Positions 13,340-20,357 are shown, counted from the stretch's first letter. The stretch: 64,000 nt of DNA from Litorimonas sp. (GCA_051251645.1 JBPOEY010000002.1:70093-134092), one strand, 5' to 3'. Notes: generated by a model not told the origin, from the letters alone. Numbers and translations are program-made.

Positions 13340-13681
13340 ATGAAACGTTTCACCCTTCTCCTGTTTGCGATCCTGCTGGGATCAGCGGTGCCCGCCTTTG
13401 GCGGCGAGGTCACGCGCGAAAATGCTAGCGCCAAGTTCGAATGGAAAAGCACCGAATGCCAGCGCCCGTCCCGCCCCTATCCGCAAAAAAACGACCCGAC
13501 GCGACAGGCGCAGATGCAGAATTTTACGCTGAAAGTGGCCTATTATCTCGACTGCCTCAAAGGTGAAGCCCAACGTGATTTCGATCGCGCGCAAGTCGAA
13601 ATGCACGAAGCCATTCAACGCAAGCTGCAAGCGGAAACGGATAAGATGAACGACGATGTCGTACGAATGGTGAAGCAATGA
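13340..13681 (+). CDS. Secreted hypothetical protein
   Basis: GAGG RBS, signal peptide (SAVPAFG), two Cys; followed by a perfect hairpin. Confidence 0.75.
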   Translation: MKRFTLLLFAILLGSAVPAFGGEVTRENASAKFEWKSTECQRPSRPYPQKNDPTRQAQMQNFTLKVAYYLDCLKGEAQRDFDRAQVEMHEAIQRKLQAETDKMNDDVVRMVKQ

Positions 13682-13685
13682 CGCA

Positions 13686-13712
13686 GCCTTTTGATCCGGG
13701 GGATCAAAAGGC
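13686..13712. terminator. Perfect 12-bp hairpin (terminator-like)
   Basis: GCCTTTTGATCC-GGG-GGATCAAAAGGC immediately after a stop codon; no clear U-run on either strand. Confidence 0.55.
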
Positions 13713-14110
13713 AAGGAACCGAGAGCGCAGCGAACGGCTCCAATCTCAAGACATAGGGATATGTCCTACCGCCCATCGCGGGGTCGGCAAACAACGTTTC
13801 GTGATCAAAGTGACACGAGCGCGGGCGCTACCCTGTGACGGATAGAGAATTGAGATACCGATTTACACAGGGTCGAACCCGCGCGATTAGTAGGCGCACC
13901 CGATCAAAAACGCTGTGCCCCGACGGCCCGCTATGAGCTCACGCCGGTGACGATGAGACGGGACACAGGACTTTCGATCCCACACCCGCCAACCGCCCGA
14001 TGTCGCGAAGGCGCACGGCGACGAGGTGTAAATCTCGCCGTTAATCCGCTCGTTCTCATCCGCTAATCGTCATCAGTCGTTCCGCCGGATGGAACCATGC
14101 GCGCCGCATT
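13713..14110 (-). ncRNA. Candidate large structured non-coding RNA (unassigned)
   Basis: No ORF of 60 aa or more covers 13715-14088. Many stems use G-U pairs valid only on the minus strand, with a GAAA tetraloop and two crossing long-range pairings (see findings). Confidence 0.5.
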
Positions 14111-14285
14111 ACCTCGCCCATCGTCCAGCCCACCAAACCCCCGCCAGCCTGAGAATAATGCCTCTCTCGTGTCCGAAGCGGGTGAGGCTAACAGACCACG
14201 GTTTCGGTAAGCGGGGATGGGGTTGTGGGAAATGTGATGGGGGATGGGATTTGCGAGGGGTGTTAGCGGGAATGGATTTTTCTAT

Positions 14286-14399
14286 TTGTCATCCCGACCT
14301 AGCGCAGCGCAGAATCGCGACCTTACAGCTGTGAACCTCGCTCGCTGGATCACGCAACTGACAGGTCCCGGATCGCCAAAGGGGCGTCCGGGATGACAA
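14286..14399. repeat. REP/MITE-like element with GTCATCCCG termini
   Basis: Perfect 11-bp terminal inverted repeat TTGTCATCCCG...CGGGATGACAA downstream of nadA. Confidence 0.75.
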
Positions 14400-14499: not shown

Positions 14500-15672
14500 C
14501 TAGATCACTTTTACGTCTTTGATCGGGCTGTCCGGATCGAAGTGTCCTTTTTCCTTATCAAACTTCACATTGATCATGCGCATGACGGCGTCATAGGCTT
14601 GGGCGCGCATGGGTTCGGGCACGAGCACTTCATTGGTCCCGTCGCGCAAACACTCATAGAGGTTTTCCAGCGTGATCCGTTTCATATGCGGGCAAAGATT
14701 ACACGGGCGAACGAAATCAACGGTTGGGTTGGCCATGGCGACATTGTCAGACATGGAACATTCGGTCAGCAGGATGACTTTGCCCGGGCTGTGATCCCCG
14801 ACATAATCACTCATCGCTTTGGTGGAGCCTGTAAAGTCAGATTCTTCGACCACTTCAGGTGGGCATTCGGGGTGGGCCAGCACAACCACGCCCGGATTGG
14901 CCGCGCGCATGTCGCGCACATCTTGGGCCGAGAAACGCGCATGCACTTCACAGCGGCCATGCCACGCAATGATCTCAATATCGGTCTGACGCGCGACGTT
15001 TTTCGCGAGGAATTCATCCGGCAGCATGATGACTTTATCGACGCCCCATTCGGCGGCGATATGTTCGACAATGGCGACCGCATTTGAGCTGGTACAGCAA
15101 ATGTCGGACTCCGCTTTTACGTCCGCCGATGTGTTGACATAGGTCACGATTGGAATGCCGGGATAGCGTTGCTTGATTAATTGCACATCCGCGCCCGTGA
15201 TCGAGCTGGCGAGCGAACAGCCCGCGCGCATGGACGGAATATAGACGCGTTTATCCGGACAGAGAATTTTAGACGTCTCGGCCATGAAATGCACGCCGCC
15301 CTGAATAATGACGGTGGCGTCAGTTTTCGTCGCTTCAATCGCGAGACCAAGGCTATCGCCCACATAATCGCCTACCAGCGCAAAAATATCGGGCGTCATA
15401 TAATTATGGGCGAGAACAACCGCGTTCTTCTCGACCTTCAGTTGATTGATCGCATGGACGAGCGGCGCATAGGCCGGCCATTCAAACTCAGGAATAAAAT
15501 TGGACACTTGTGCGTAGAGGTGGTCCGTCGCGGCTTTGACCTCGTCCGTATAAGGCAAGTCCTTGGGATATCCGTCCAAGTCTTTGCCCGGCACGGCACA
15601 GACGCCGTTTTCGACTTCCAGCGTCTGGCCAATCCAGCGACCATTTTCCCAATTGAGAAGCTCTTTACCCAT
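14500..15672 (-). CDS. nadA: Quinolinate synthase
   Basis: LAHNYMTP, GVHFMAET, GCSLA, YVNTSA, DICCTSSNA, AHPECP, TECSM and CPHMK motifs. Confidence 0.97.
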   Translation of the reverse strand: MGKELLNWENGRWIGQTLEVENGVCAVPGKDLDGYPKDLPYTDEVKAATDHLYAQVSNFIPEFEWPAYAPLVHAINQLKVEKNAVVLAHNYMTPDIFALVGDYVGDSLGLAIEATKTDATVIIQGGVHFMAETSKILCPDKRVYIPSMRAGCSLASSITGADVQLIKQRYPGIPIVTYVNTSADVKAESDICCTSSNAVAIVEHIAAEWGVDKVIMLPDEFLAKNVARQTDIEIIAWHGRCEVHARFSAQDVRDMRAANPGVVVLAHPECPPEVVEESDFTGSTKAMSDYVGDHSPGKVILLTECSMSDNVAMANPTVDFVRPCNLCPHMKRITLENLYECLRDGTNEVLVPEPMRAQAYDAVMRMINVKFDKEKGHFDPDSPIKDVKVI

Positions 15673-18638: not shown

Positions 18639-20357
18639 TCATAAAGCCGCATTTCGTCCGCAAAAGCCGCTTGTCAGACGCCCCACCCCATCGCTATAGG
18701 CGCGCTCTGCTTTGGCGTGCGGCCGTGGCGGAATTGGTAGACGCGCAGCGTTGAGGTCGCTGTGGGGTAACACCCGTGGAAGTTCGAGTCTTCTCGGCCG
18801 CACCATTACTTCATTTTGCATGTTCATGCTCCCTAACACCTTGAATGGTAACGAGAAATCGTGGTTCGAGAACCCCTTTTCGGGGCAATAGGGTAAAGCC
18901 TTAGGTAGGGCGAGCTTGAGCAAGAGCCTTTGCTTGGCAAATTCGCCACTTTCCCAGAGTTTCCAAGGCATTGTCAGGAATTGCATTGCAGCCTGAAACG
19001 CCGTTTCAAAGGGTTGTGGGGGTTCGAGAGGCTGTGTAGCCCTATTCTCTAAATCACGCTTTTGCGTTTCGAGAAGATCGACTTCTTTCTCATAGGCCGC
19101 AATCACGCGATCACTCGTACTGTTCATGATACGGTCGATAAGTTTTGTGATTTTTCCATCTATCACCGCGACGCTTTCAACACTGACACTCTGCTGCGCT
19201 TTGAGGCTGTCTAAGCGTGCATCCCAAATCTTGCGGAACATGGCGCTGGCCGCAGCAAGGAGCTGTGGACGCGGCGTGAGGCTTTTTGCAATTTCACCAA
19301 AGCCGTCTTCAATCCGCTCTTTACGAATGGACTTGCCATAGCGGTCACAGCCCTTCTGTTGACAGGTGTAGTAGCCATACTTCTTGTAACGCCCCTTCGA
19401 CCATGCAGACGTCATCGGCGTGTCACAGCATGAGCACGATACGAAATGGCGCATCGGGAAATCTTCATGAACATGGGCGCGGGCGGGTTTGGGCGATTTA
19501 CCGTCGAGACGATCTTGGATTTTTTGCCACGTCTCCAAACTGATCAGCGGCTCATGCTTTCCACGGAGCATGTGAATGTTCCACTTTTTGATCGTCATGT
19601 GTCCAGCGTAGAGCGGCTGGCGCAAAACATTGAACGGGTATTGATGGGACAGGGGTGTTTTGCGGCTGCCCATGATTGACGCATGACCGCTTAGAAATCG
19701 TCTTACATCAGCGCCCGTATCGAAACGCCCACTGGCGTAGCCCTCCAACGCCTCGCGAATGATGGAAGCGTTCGGCTCGTCAGGCGTGATGATTTTGCCG
19801 CCGTCAGAGGCCTTCTGAAATTTATAGCCGACGGGCTGATTGAACAGCCAATAGCCTTGATCAACACGGGCGCGCATCTTCTGGATAGTTTGCCGACGGT
19901 TTTGTTGGCGTTCCAATTCACCTTGCGCGGCAAGGATGGTTTCGATGAAGTTGCCTTCGGGCGTGTCCTCAAACTTGAAGTTTAGGCACTCAACAGTTGC
20001 GCCACGGTCTTCCAACGCTTTGCGGAGTTGCAGATGAAACACCGTGTCACGCGCAAAGCGTTTTAGATCATCAAAGATCACCAAAAATTGCTCATCCGGT
20101 TGCGCATCAAGAAAGGCAAGAAGGGCAACCATACCGGGGCGCTTCATGTAATCGCCACCGCCTGACACATCATCGGGGAATACGGCTGTCACCGTATATC
20201 CTTTATCTTCCGCATAGCGGCGGCATCGAAGCTCTTGGCTTTGCAAGCCTGACCCTTCGGTTGTTTGCTTCGTTGAGGACACGCGGCAGTAGATCAGCGC
20301 TTTTCGCGGTGCGTTCTGCGCAGGATGAGATGGGACTCGTTTTGCGTTTTGGGTCAT
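18639..20357 (-). CDS. Large serine recombinase (resolvase + recombinase + Zn ribbon)
   Basis: ALIYCRVSS catalytic Ser motif, DDLKRFARD, PVGY and CSCC...CQQKGC Zn ribbon. The ORF reads through the tRNA antisense to a stop at 18639. Confidence 0.92.
   Translation of the reverse strand: MTQNAKRVPSHPAQNAPRKALIYCRVSSTKQTTEGSGLQSQELRCRRYAEDKGYTVTAVFPDDVSGGGDYMKRPGMVALLAFLDAQPDEQFLVIFDDLKRFARDTVFHLQLRKALEDRGATVECLNFKFEDTPEGNFIETILAAQGELERQQNRRQTIQKMRARVDQGYWLFNQPVGYKFQKASDGGKIITPDEPNASIIREALEGYASGRFDTGADVRRFLSGHASIMGSRKTPLSHQYPFNVLRQPLYAGHMTIKKWNIHMLRGKHEPLISLETWQKIQDRLDGKSPKPARAHVHEDFPMRHFVSCSCCDTPMTSAWSKGRYKKYGYYTCQQKGCDRYGKSIRKERIEDGFGEIAKSLTPRPQLLAAASAMFRKIWDARLDSLKAQQSVSVESVAVIDGKITKLIDRIMNSTSDRVIAAYEKEVDLLETQKRDLENRATQPLEPPQPFETAFQAAMQFLTMPWKLWESGEFAKQRLLLKLALPKALPYCPEKGFSNHDFSLPFKVLGSMNMQNEVMVRPRRLELPRVLPHSDLNAARLPIPPRPHAKAERAYSDGVGRLTSGFCGRNAAL
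18719..18805 (+). tRNA. tRNA-Leu(GAG)
   Basis: Acceptor GCGGCCG/CGGCCGC-ACCA, D-loop GGAATTGGTAGAC, anticodon stem CAGCG-TTGAGGT-CGCTG, long variable arm, GTTCGAGTC T-loop. Upstream TTGTCA...GCTATAG promoter-like sequence. Confidence 0.97.

What the first reader, a model, noticed from the sequence alone, without database searches (positions are those of the whole stretch)
13713..14110. Unassigned ~400-nt ornate RNA with two pseudoknot-like pairings between convergent genes
Seen: an ORF-free block with many stems: GACATA/TATGTC (13750-65), CCCTGTG/CACAGGG (13831-37/13866-72), TGACGAT/ATCGTCA (13948-54/14066-72), and GATGAGACG/CGTTCTCATC. A GAAA-tetraloop hairpin (13960-13987) and GAGCCG/CGGUUC need G-U pairs valid only on the minus strand. 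Two crossing pairings: the hairpin-loop GATTTACAC (14026-34) is perfectly complementary over 9 nt to 13860-68, and ATCTCAA/TTGAGAT (13850-56/13743-49) crosses the CCCTGTG stem. It does not match RNase P, tmRNA, SRP, 6S or common riboswitch signatures that I can recognise. Inference: a standalone large ncRNA. The order (kissing loop, GNRA hairpin, kissing partner, small stems, final GAGCCG stem) loosely recalls a group II intron scaffold, but the domain V geometry is not canonical.
Basis: partly seen in the sequence, partly recalled or inferred. Interest (0 to 1): 0.78.

Follow-up and report, generated by a model that had tools for sequence, protein, structure and literature searches.

The report
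Multicopy ornate RNA repeat family
The flagged block is one of about thirty copies of a gene-free, half-kilobase repeat found only in Algimonas/Litorimonas bacteria; it encodes a large, intricately folded RNA that matches no described family, has no partner protein and has no known function.

Summary
The structure is real, but the finding is mis-framed. Window 13713-14110 is the middle of a repeat unit of about 0.5 kb (about 14283 to 13743, RNA on the minus strand). It has 34 matches in this genome. Nearly every sampled genome of the Algimonas/Litorimonas genus carries 7 to 22 or more copies. It was not found in 150 other alphaproteobacterial families. RNAalifold on 32 copies gives 82 pairs, 41 of them with compensatory double changes. 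A long-range helix (14173-14166 with 13819-13812) closes the RNA and covaries between subtypes. G-U wobble and folding energy favour the minus strand only. A conserved promoter-like module precedes every subtype. No Rfam family matches. No TnpB, IS110 or Y1 transposase was found, and no reverse transcriptase is associated. No neighbouring ORF recurs, and no conserved small ORF lies inside the element. Copies sit in intergenic DNA next to unrelated housekeeping genes. They are kept at orthologous sites, evolve in concert within a genome, lie at synteny breakpoints, and are sometimes missing or decayed. Best reading: a new lineage-specific, multicopy "ornate" non-coding RNA gene family of the mobile/repeat type. 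Its biochemical role is unknown.

The parts
14228..14283 (-). Upstream extension of the repeat unit, carrying a distal ATCC-N-CGC motif (about 14270-14280). Similarity between copies ends just 5' of it.
   Evidence: Alignments of copies with their flanks.
14211..14222 (-). Proximal conserved motif CCCCATCCCCGC at a -35-like position. Other subtypes have AGAGAT..(T/A)GATCC-N-C here. From memory, it resembles a DnaA box.
   Evidence: Flanks of all subtypes right-anchored on the long-range helix. Inference only; no transcript data.
14190..14195 (-). -10-like hexamer (TCTGTT here; CAATTT or CAGTTT in other type A copies; TATATT in distant subtypes), 17 nt after the ATCC hexamer. Predicted start of the RNA is about 14183.
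   Evidence: Conserved spacing in all subtypes. Inferred.
14140..14182 (-). P1 domain: CCCGC (14182-14178) pairs with GCGGG (14144-14140) and encloses a small hairpin.
   Evidence: RNAalifold, with CG/GC/UA/AU exchanges; coordinates.
14166..14173 (-). 5' strand (GACACGAG) of the long-range closing helix.
   Evidence: Paired in 32/32 copies with an AU-to-GC double change. Other subtypes have GGCAYGAGG/CCUCGUGCC and GGACAG/CUGUCC.
13812..13819 (-). 3' strand (CUCGUGUC) of the long-range closing helix.
14128..14138 (-). P2 5' strand (GUUUGGUGGGC), made of G and U only. It pairs with 13885-13895.
   Evidence: the 3' strand varies by transitions that G-U wobble absorbs. This works on the minus strand only.
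14092..14126 (-). P3 hairpin with a conserved 11-nt loop, AGGUAAUGCGG.
   Evidence: pairs 154-165/177-188, up to 8 double changes; alignment A2.
14079..14091 (-). P4 5' strand, pairing with 13897-13911. Together with P2 it encloses the central domain.
13996..14078 (-). Variable central domain. It includes the subfamily-specific hairpin whose loop, GAUUUACAC (14026-14034), is complementary to the P8 loop.
   Evidence: Other subfamilies carry GNRA-type or unrelated hairpins at this position.
13951..13995 (-).
   Evidence: pairs 353-357/363-367, 14-15 double changes.
13920..13947 (-). P7: CCGGCG (13947-13942) pairs with CGUCGG (13925-13920).
   Evidence: UA/CG and GC/CG exchanges.
13819..13884 (-). 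P8 long hairpin with the conserved loop motif GUGUAAAUCGG. This is the core of the 3' domain shared by all subtypes.
   Evidence: helix 1: 16 of 19 pairs with double changes.
13769..13787 (-). P9 terminal hairpin (loop ..GAU).
   Evidence: helix 2: 5 of 6 pairs with double changes.
13743..13768 (-). Conserved 3' tail (GGAC..UGUCUUGAGA). In this copy it forms the GACAUA/UAUGUC hairpin.
13679..13742 (-). Optional 3' module found in only a few copies. It holds the GAGCCG..CGGUUC hairpin and the 27-nt palindrome 13685-13711, which abuts the stop of ORF 13340-13681.

Best explanation
Window 13713-14110 is the interior of one paralogue of a lineage-specific, ORF-less, multicopy gene family.

What each unit is. 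Each unit (here about 14283 to 13743, minus strand) has a conserved promoter-like module followed by a highly structured RNA of about 440 nt. At least ten helices, several of them long-range, are kept by compensatory change. A 5'/3' helix closes the molecule.

How the units behave. They behave like a mobile/repeat-type RNA gene:
- They occupy intergenic DNA next to unrelated housekeeping genes, in either orientation.
- Copy number differs between species.
- At orthologous sites they can be present, absent or decayed.
- They are homogenised within a genome by gene conversion.
- They act as substrates for rearrangements.

Shown: the family exists; the RNA-level structure is on the minus strand; the distribution is as described; there is concerted evolution; no element-linked protein was found.

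Inferred:
- The unit is transcribed from its own promoter.
- The folded RNA (as a ribonucleoprotein scaffold or a catalytic RNA) is the selected product.
- Today the family persists and spreads mainly by homologous recombination and gene conversion, not through an element-encoded enzyme.
For: - Repeat family: 34 matches in the genome, 71-97% identical to the window copy by BLAST.
- Structure: 82 consensus pairs, 41 with double compensatory changes.
- 3' domain across all subtypes: 93.8% of cells paired against 72% in shuffles and about 40% with slid partners; 21 of 25 pairs show double changes.
- Long-range helix: paired in 32/32 copies, and it covaries between subtypes.
- Strand asymmetry of folding.
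- The same layout in every subtype: ATCC motif, 17 nt, TAnnTT-like hexamer, 17-20 nt, then the helix.
- Distribution: type A in 9/48 genomes of the genus. The superfamily is in 7/8 and 9/12 sampled genus genomes, with 7 to 22 or more matches in most, plus three neighbouring genera. It was found in 0/150 other families of the class.
- A pattern scan of all species genomes returned only Algimonas, Litorimonas and one unclassified MAG.
- Orthologous sites are occupied in several species.
- Two locus-wise orthologue pairs diverged by 0.19-0.26 substitutions per site. Four-fold degenerate sites are only about 54% identical, a Jukes-Cantor distance of about 0.7 by my calculation.
- Copies otherwise cluster by genome, which indicates concerted evolution.
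- Flanks of single copies map to different contigs of this genome.
- An empty site and a decayed relic exist in sister species.
- Neighbouring genes are diverse.
Against: - There are no transcript data, so the promoter and the RNA ends are inferred.
- The -35-like element matches no sigma-factor consensus that I could verify.
- No mobility mechanism, target-site duplication or terminal repeat could be defined.
- Clustering by genome could also reflect repeated re-insertion at preferred sites.
- The alignments used for the pair counts were partly fitted to the structure.
- Covariation among paralogues may reflect selection on a few source copies rather than on every locus.
- The biochemical function is unknown.
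Confidence: 0.6

Rival explanations
1. A host-domesticated, trans-acting RNA family, for example a protein-sequestering or scaffold RNA. Its many paralogues would be expressed from a shared regulated promoter, possibly controlled by DnaA or by an alternative sigma factor. The host would keep the copies for dosage.
For: - Near-universal in the genus.
- Orthologous copies diverge three to four times more slowly than four-fold degenerate sites.
- The upstream motif and its spacing are conserved in all subtypes.
- No mobility gene was found.
Against: - Copy number ranges from 1 to over 30 between close species.
- Empty sites and decayed relics exist.
- Several divergent subtypes coexist in one genome.
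- Copies lie next to other intergenic repeats.
- No target or partner is known.
Confidence: 0.25
2. A non-autonomous DNA transposon (a MITE, or an IS200/IS605-type palindrome-associated element) whose hairpins act at the DNA or single-stranded DNA level, moved by a transposase supplied in trans.
For: - Dispersed and intergenic, in either orientation, with present/absent polymorphism.
- Adjacent to REP/MITE-like palindromes.
- A possible short direct repeat (TCCGC) at one filled site.
Against: - No terminal inverted repeats and no consistent duplication.
- No Y1, TnpB or IS110 gene in the genome.
- The whole 440 nt is structured, including long-range helices and conserved loops.
- Helix strands made of G and U tolerate transitions on one strand only.
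- A promoter-like module is conserved.
Confidence: 0.08
3. A hok-like type I toxin-antitoxin locus: a structured mRNA of about 400 nt with 5'/3' fold-back pairing that encodes a small toxic peptide.
For: - Multicopy, with its own promoter.
- 5'/3' long-range pairing with covariation, which from memory resembles hok family mRNAs.
- A short ORF starting MRR.. begins at a conserved AUG in 29/32 type A copies.
Against: - That ORF is basic rather than hydrophobic, its length (17-123 aa) and C-terminus are not conserved, and it lies in a covarying hairpin.
- Other ORFs are broken by 1-nt indels.
- The motif holding that start codon is missing from the type B and distant copies I read by eye, and I saw no alternative ORF there.
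Confidence: 0.04
4. An orphan guide or scaffold RNA of an RNA-guided nuclease or recombinase (HEARO/IscB omega-RNA, TnpB omega-RNA or IS110 bridge-RNA type), or an ORF-less group II intron.
For: - Large, ornate, multicopy RNA, as HEARO and ORF-less introns are.
- Both DUF559 nuclease genes of this genome lie just upstream of copies, on the same strand.
Against: - No Rfam HEARO or intron hit at E<=10.
- No TnpB or IS110.
- Reverse transcriptase is present in only 12/30 genus genomes and absent from several that carry many copies.
- DUF559 genes elsewhere in the genus have no element nearby, and G021, G041 and G044 have elements but no DUF559.
- No hypervariable guide-like segment. I saw no domain V-shaped helix or GUGYG 5' end in the alignments.
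Confidence: 0.03

Closest known systems
HEARO RNA (IscB omega-RNA) and other mobile-element-borne ornate RNAs
   Same: Large, multi-helix RNA. Many copies per genome, including ORF-less ones. Intergenic and lineage-patchy. Structure supported by covariation.
   Different: No Rfam HEARO match. No IscB, TnpB or HNH gene nearby or in the genome. No variable guide segment. It has its own conserved promoter-like module. Copies are kept at orthologous sites and homogenised.
ORF-less and circularly permuted group II introns (for the permuted type see PMC8637638)
   Same: ORF-less structured RNA of 0.4-0.8 kb, multicopy, with GNRA-type loops and long-range helices.
   Different: No domain V/VI, no GUGYG/AY ends, no Intron_gpII hit, and no dependence on reverse transcriptase. 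It sits in intergenic DNA rather than inside a host transcript with exon-binding sites.
'Mobile/repeat sequence candidates' (MRSC) from Breaker-lab intergenic-region surveys (PMC11109978)
   Same: Fits their working definition in part: multiple copies per genome and inconsistent orientation relative to neighbouring genes.
   Different: It is not associated with a transposase, integrase, nuclease or helicase. At about 440 nt with ten or more helices it is much larger than a typical repeat hairpin.
hok/sok-type type I toxin-antitoxin mRNAs
   Same: About 400 nt, own promoter, chromosomal multicopy, 5'/3' fold-back helix supported by covariation (recalled from memory, not tested against hok sequences).
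   Different: No conserved small hydrophobic ORF. No evidence of an antisense RNA gene.
Bacterial interspersed repeats (REP/BIME, ERIC, Correia, RUP and other MITEs)
   Same: Dispersed intergenic repeats that promote recombination. They are often adjacent to this element.
   Different: Those are 30-200 bp palindromes with DNA-level symmetry. This element is asymmetric, strand-specific and about 0.5 kb, with conserved unpaired loops and a promoter-like module.
Large 'ornate' bacterial RNAs of unknown or recently emerging function (OLE, GOLLD, ROOL, raiA)
   Same: Size, complexity, conserved loops, and swapping of peripheral elements (kissing loop versus GNRA-type cap).
   Different: Those occur in one or a few copies per genome and are phylogenetically broad. 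This one has about 30 copies per genome and is confined to one genus and a few neighbouring genera.

Membership tests
Any Rfam 15 family | Covariance-model match at the gathering score, or at least a suggestive E-value | tested here: not met
   The window had no match at gathering score in this region. At E<=10 the region gave only a chance sX5 hit. Type B, type C and distant copies gave no relevant hit at E<=1.
Group II intron | Domain V/VI (34-nt helix with AGC triad, 2-nt bulge and GNRA loop; bulged A), detectable by RF00029 | tested here: not met
   No RF00029 or other intron hit. By my reading, the only GAAA-type hairpin (P6) has a symmetric internal loop, a CGAAA pentaloop and no AGC triad.
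Group II intron | Intron-encoded or co-resident reverse transcriptase/maturase | tested here: not met
   The only RT in this genome is DRT6-like and lies beside parE. RVT_1 is present in 12/30 genus genomes and absent from G021, G044, G055, G042 and G043, which carry many copies.
HEARO / OMEGA guide RNAs (IscB, TnpB) | Adjacency to, or co-occurrence with, an IscB/TnpB nuclease gene, plus a variable guide segment | tested here: not met
   PF07282 has no hit in the genome. No neighbouring ORF recurs. Near-identical copies differ by wobble-compatible changes in a helix, not in a guide-like block.
IS110 bridge-RNA elements | DEDD recombinase gene | tested here: not met
   PF01548 has no hit in the genome.
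IS200/IS605 palindrome-associated elements | Y1 transposase available in the genome | tested here: not met
   PF01797 has no hit.
MITE | Terminal inverted repeats and target-site duplication | tested here: inconclusive
   Aligned ends show no terminal inverted repeats. One filled/empty comparison shows a possible short direct repeat (TCCGC), but the flanks are too diverged to be sure.
Type I toxin-antitoxin (hok-like) | Conserved small hydrophobic ORF within the structured mRNA | tested here: not met
   In type A, the only widely shared start gives basic peptides of 17-123 aa with an unconserved C-terminus, and the other ORFs are frame-broken. By eye I saw no counterpart in type B or distant copies.
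Structured non-coding RNA (generic) | Base pairs kept through compensatory changes, on one strand | tested here: met
   41 of 82 pairs have double changes. In the 3' domain 21 of 25 pairs have double changes, and 0 of 500 shuffles reach the observed values. Strand asymmetry.
RpoE/ChrR (ECF) dependent promoter | TGATCC-N16-CGTA (PMC5507510) | tested here: not met
   Many copies have (T/A)GATCC at the -35 position. The -10 position reads TATATT, CAATTT or TCTGTT, never CGTA.
DnaA-box-bearing promoter | TTATCCACA-like box bound by DnaA | not testable with these tools
   The motif (T/A)(T/G)ATCC(A/C/G)C resembles the DnaA box consensus as I recall it. The review I read gives no box sequences. Binding was not tested.

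The most novel reading that the evidence does not exclude
This is a previously undescribed class of large ornate RNA that propagates and homogenises itself across about 30 chromosomal loci without any element-encoded protein. Possible routes are an RNA-catalysed or RNA-templated step, or recruitment of host recombination. Alternatively, it is a cell-cycle-wired multicopy RNA driven from promoters with DnaA-box-like motifs.
Probability: 0.12. Interest if true: 0.85.

Novelty: new variant of a known kind. Interest (0 to 1): 0.62.

Why it matters
Bacterial RNAs over 400 nt with this many conserved helices are rare. When their roles were finally found, they were ribozymes, ribonucleoprotein scaffolds or guide RNAs; HEARO, for example, proved to be the IscB guide. 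This family offers about 30 natural variants per genome and hundreds across one genus. That is an unusually rich covariation data set for structure modelling. It is also a clean case of concerted evolution and repeat-driven genome rearrangement in marine Caulobacterales. If the RNA has a role in its own spread, or a host function tied to its conserved promoter, it would define a new functional RNA class. If it is only a selfish repeat, it still explains the oversized intergenic gaps and the synteny breaks in these genomes.

Tried and rejected
- Rfam, at gathering score and with permissive E-values, on the window, on subtypes B and C and on distant copies: nothing relevant.
- BLAST of the element against plasmid and phage collections: no match.
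- Partner enzymes in this genome: no TnpB, no IS110, no Y1 transposase. The single RT is DRT6-like and unrelated in position. RT is patchy across the genus.
- Recurrent neighbouring ORFs around 30 own-genome copies, 20 copies from other species and 31 further loci, mostly of distant types: none beyond orthologous flanks.
- DUF559 nuclease lead. Both DUF559 genes of this genome sit just upstream of copies. The link fails elsewhere in the genus, so I dropped it as a general partner.
- Functional theme among neighbouring genes: none. A cis-regulatory or riboswitch reading is rejected, also because orientation relative to the neighbours is mixed.
- Small conserved ORF, to test a type I toxin: rejected.
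- Terminal repeats or target duplication: not definable.
- RpoE/ChrR promoter: the -10 element does not fit.
- Papers on Algimonas/Litorimonas and on multicopy structured RNAs: no description of this element.
- Not run: the metagenome scan (no sufficiently specific degenerate pattern), R-scape (not installed), and any 3D modelling.

Full report
**Setting.** The flagged block lies in an 818-nt gap between two convergent genes: a 113-aa ORF without a Pfam family (13340-13681, +) and quinolinate synthase nadA (14500-15672, -). Only short ORFs of 42-81 aa without family hits overlap it. Rfam 15 finds nothing here at gathering score, and only a chance sRNA hit at E<=10. As a single sequence, the minus strand folds much better than shuffled controls and the plus strand does not. 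Over 13690-14130 the z-scores are -2.9 and -0.9. Over 13745-14183 they are -2.1 and -0.3, with a 42 kcal/mol difference between strands.

**It is a repeat.** Searching the window's own assembly with the gap sequence returned dozens of matches at 71-97% identity. A profile of the unit finds 34 places. Twenty-two of them cover nearly the whole 485-nt core. Several more share only the 3' 140 nt, and the rest are fragments. Aligning copies with their flanks shows that similarity runs from about window 14283 to 13743. A few copies carry an extra 3' module that matches 13679-13742. Copies that match only by their 3' part are not truncations. They belong to two further subtypes (B and C) with different central domains but the same ends.

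**It is an RNA-level structure on the minus strand.**
- An alignment of 32 copies from four genomes (A1) gives an RNAalifold consensus of 82 pairs. Forty-one of these show at least one sequence with both sides changed and the pair kept.
- The best-supported helices are the CGAAA-capped hairpin (window 13951-13995), the long P8 hairpin (13819-13884), P3 with its conserved AGGUAAUGCGG loop (14092-14126), and P9 (13769-13787).
- Two long-range helices, P2 (14128-14138 with 13885-13895) and P4 (14079-14091 with 13897-13911), enclose the central domain. Their 5' strands consist of G and U only, and the partner strands vary by transitions that wobble pairing absorbs. That pattern works only on the minus strand.
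- A further long-range helix, GACACGAG (14173-14166) with CUCGUGUC (13819-13812), is paired in all 32 copies and shows an AU-to-GC double change. The other subtypes have GGCAYGAGG/CCUCGUGCC or GGACAG/CUGUCC at the same positions.
- For the 3' domain across all subtypes (A5), 93.8% of cells are paired, against 72% in shuffles and about 40% with slid partners. Twenty-one of 25 pairs have double changes. This alignment was fitted to the model, which favours the structure.
- P7 (13942-13947 with 13920-13925) also covaries.

- CCCTGTG/CACAGGG and the GAAA hairpin are real and conserved.
- TGACGAT/ATCGTCA and GATGAG/CTCATC hold only in some subfamilies.
- GACATA/TATGTC and GAGCCG/CGGTTC lie in the 3' tail or the optional module.
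- The 9-nt 'kissing' complement is kept in only five of 32 copies. One of the five is a copy only about 75% identical to the window copy. Other subfamilies carry a GNRA-type or unrelated hairpin in its place. It may be a subfamily-specific tertiary contact, but it has no covariation support. By my estimate, about 0.45 such 9-mer complements are expected by chance in 485 nt.
- The 7-nt crossing pair is at chance level and is not conserved.

**A conserved promoter-like module.** When the upstream regions of all subtypes are right-anchored on the 5' strand of the closing helix, the same layout appears everywhere. It begins with a motif of the form AGAGAT..(T/A)GATCC-N-C, which reads CCCCATCCCCGC in the window (14222-14211). 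Seventeen nucleotides later comes a hexamer that reads TATATT in distant subtypes, CAATTT or CAGTTT in most type A copies, and TCTGTT here (14195-14190). After another 17-20 nt the helix begins. On this basis I place the RNA start near 14183. The region 14184-14283, which holds a second ATCC motif, would then be upstream regulatory DNA. This is inference; there are no transcript data. The -35-like half resembles the TGATCC of RpoE/ChrR promoters, but the -10 half lacks their CGTA (PMC5507510). From memory it also resembles a DnaA box. I could not verify that.

**Who has it.**
- A covariance model of the type A 5' domain finds the family in 9 of 48 genomes of the genus and in none of 143 other genomes of the order.
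- A degenerate pattern scanned over one genome per prokaryotic species returned only Algimonas arctica, Algimonas ampicilliniresistens, a Litorimonas MAG and one unclassified MAG. This identifies the lineage: Caulobacterales, Algimonas/Litorimonas.
- Models of the shared 3' domain reach further. Three neighbouring genera have a few. One weak hit appeared elsewhere in the order, and none in 150 other families of the class.
- Nothing matched in the plasmid or phage collections.

**No protein partner.**
- Flanking ORFs of 30 own-genome copies, 20 copies from other species and 31 further loci, mostly of distant types, share nothing beyond orthologous neighbours.
- The genome has no TnpB, IS110 or Y1 transposase.
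- Its single reverse transcriptase is DRT6-like and sits beside parE. Only 12 of 30 genus genomes have any RT, and several copy-rich genomes have none.
- Both DUF559 nuclease genes of this genome lie directly upstream of copies on the same strand. However, DUF559 genes elsewhere in the genus have no element nearby, and three element-rich genomes have no DUF559. I record this as a curiosity, not a partnership.
- No small ORF is conserved in frame, length or character.
- Neighbouring genes are unrelated housekeeping genes, including xseA, an acyl-CoA dehydrogenase, an RNB-domain ribonuclease (RNase R/II type), surE, dnaB, ftsK and nadA. Orientation relative to them is mixed. This rules out a pathway-specific cis-regulator.

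**Evolutionary behaviour.**
- Many copies occupy orthologous sites in different species. The site downstream of nadA is filled in this genome, in A. arctica and in A. ampicilliniresistens. Others are shared in the same way.
- On a tree of 45 copies, most cluster by genome rather than by locus. This includes the three nadA-site copies. The near-identical window-type copies are mosaics whose high identity stops inside the unit. I take this as concerted evolution by gene conversion. Repeated re-insertion at preferred sites cannot be excluded.
- Two pairs do cluster by locus. Their summed branch lengths are 0.19-0.26 substitutions per site. Four-fold degenerate sites of neighbouring genes are only about 54% identical between the two species, a Jukes-Cantor distance of about 0.7 by my calculation. 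The element therefore evolves several times more slowly than neutral sites.
- The two flanks of single copies in other species map to different contigs, or to distant places, in this genome. Copies therefore mark synteny breakpoints.
- Turnover also occurs. One site filled here is empty in A. arctica. Another is empty in one species and holds a decayed 3' relic in A. arctica.

**Interpretation.** The evidence establishes a new, lineage-restricted family of large structured RNAs encoded by a dispersed repeat. The evidence does not show what the RNA does.
- I favour a mobile/repeat-type RNA gene whose folded transcript is the selected product, and which now persists mainly through recombination between copies (confidence about 0.6).
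- A host-domesticated trans-acting RNA family is the main rival (about 0.25). The two readings are not mutually exclusive.
- DNA-level MITE, hok-like toxin mRNA, orphan guide RNA and group II intron readings each fail a defining test.

By the Breaker-lab working definition (PMC11109978), this would be filed as a 'mobile/repeat sequence candidate'. It differs in being unusually large and complex and in lacking the transposase or nuclease association that usually goes with that label.

Noticed in passing
window 14287-14396: A separate palindromic REP/MITE-like repeat of about 110 nt (GTCATCCCGAC ... GTCCGGGATGAC) lies between nadA and the RNA element. Related copies occur next to other element copies and in other genera and families of the order.
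   Followed up: partly
G000:C1:168126-168446 and G000:C1:426633-426947 (outside the window): The genome's only two DUF559 (PD-(D/E)xK, Vsr-like) genes both sit immediately upstream of an element copy on the same strand, at gaps of about 5-14 nt and about 440 nt. The association does not hold in other genomes of the genus.
   Followed up: yes
G000:C23:112415-112891 (locus L040 1165-2799): A 544-aa reverse transcriptase whose best match is the defence family DRT6 (PADLOC E 3e-131). It lies between a succinate dehydrogenase flavoprotein gene and a ParE toxin gene. It is the only RT in the genome.
   Followed up: partly
window 13685-13711: A 27-nt perfect palindrome (CCTTTTGATCC GGGGG GGATCAAAAGG) lies directly after the stop of ORF 13340-13681, with no T-run on either strand. 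It is part of a 62-65-nt module shared at 93-95% identity by three element copies, with a fourth matching its first 30 nt. It may act as a bidirectional terminator.
   Followed up: partly
window 13340-13681: A 113-aa ORF with no Pfam family. It is conserved in 15 of 48 genus genomes (88% identity in A. arctica) and keeps the element as its downstream neighbour there.
   Followed up: partly
loci L099, L103, L105, L109 (A. ampicilliniresistens) compared with G000 contigs C12, C23, C24 and C1: The left and right flanks of single element copies map to different contigs of this genome. For example, nadA on one side is joined to the flank of copy c19 on the other. The repeats therefore mark inter-species rearrangement breakpoints.
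   Followed up: partly
L012/L064 (G003:C2:~1094900-1095030): A 'mini' version of the element joins the 5' domain directly to the 3' domain and lacks the central domain of about 220 nt. It sits at the site orthologous to copy c04.
   Followed up: no
window 18719-18802: A tRNA gene, the only Rfam gathering-score hit in the window.
   Followed up: no
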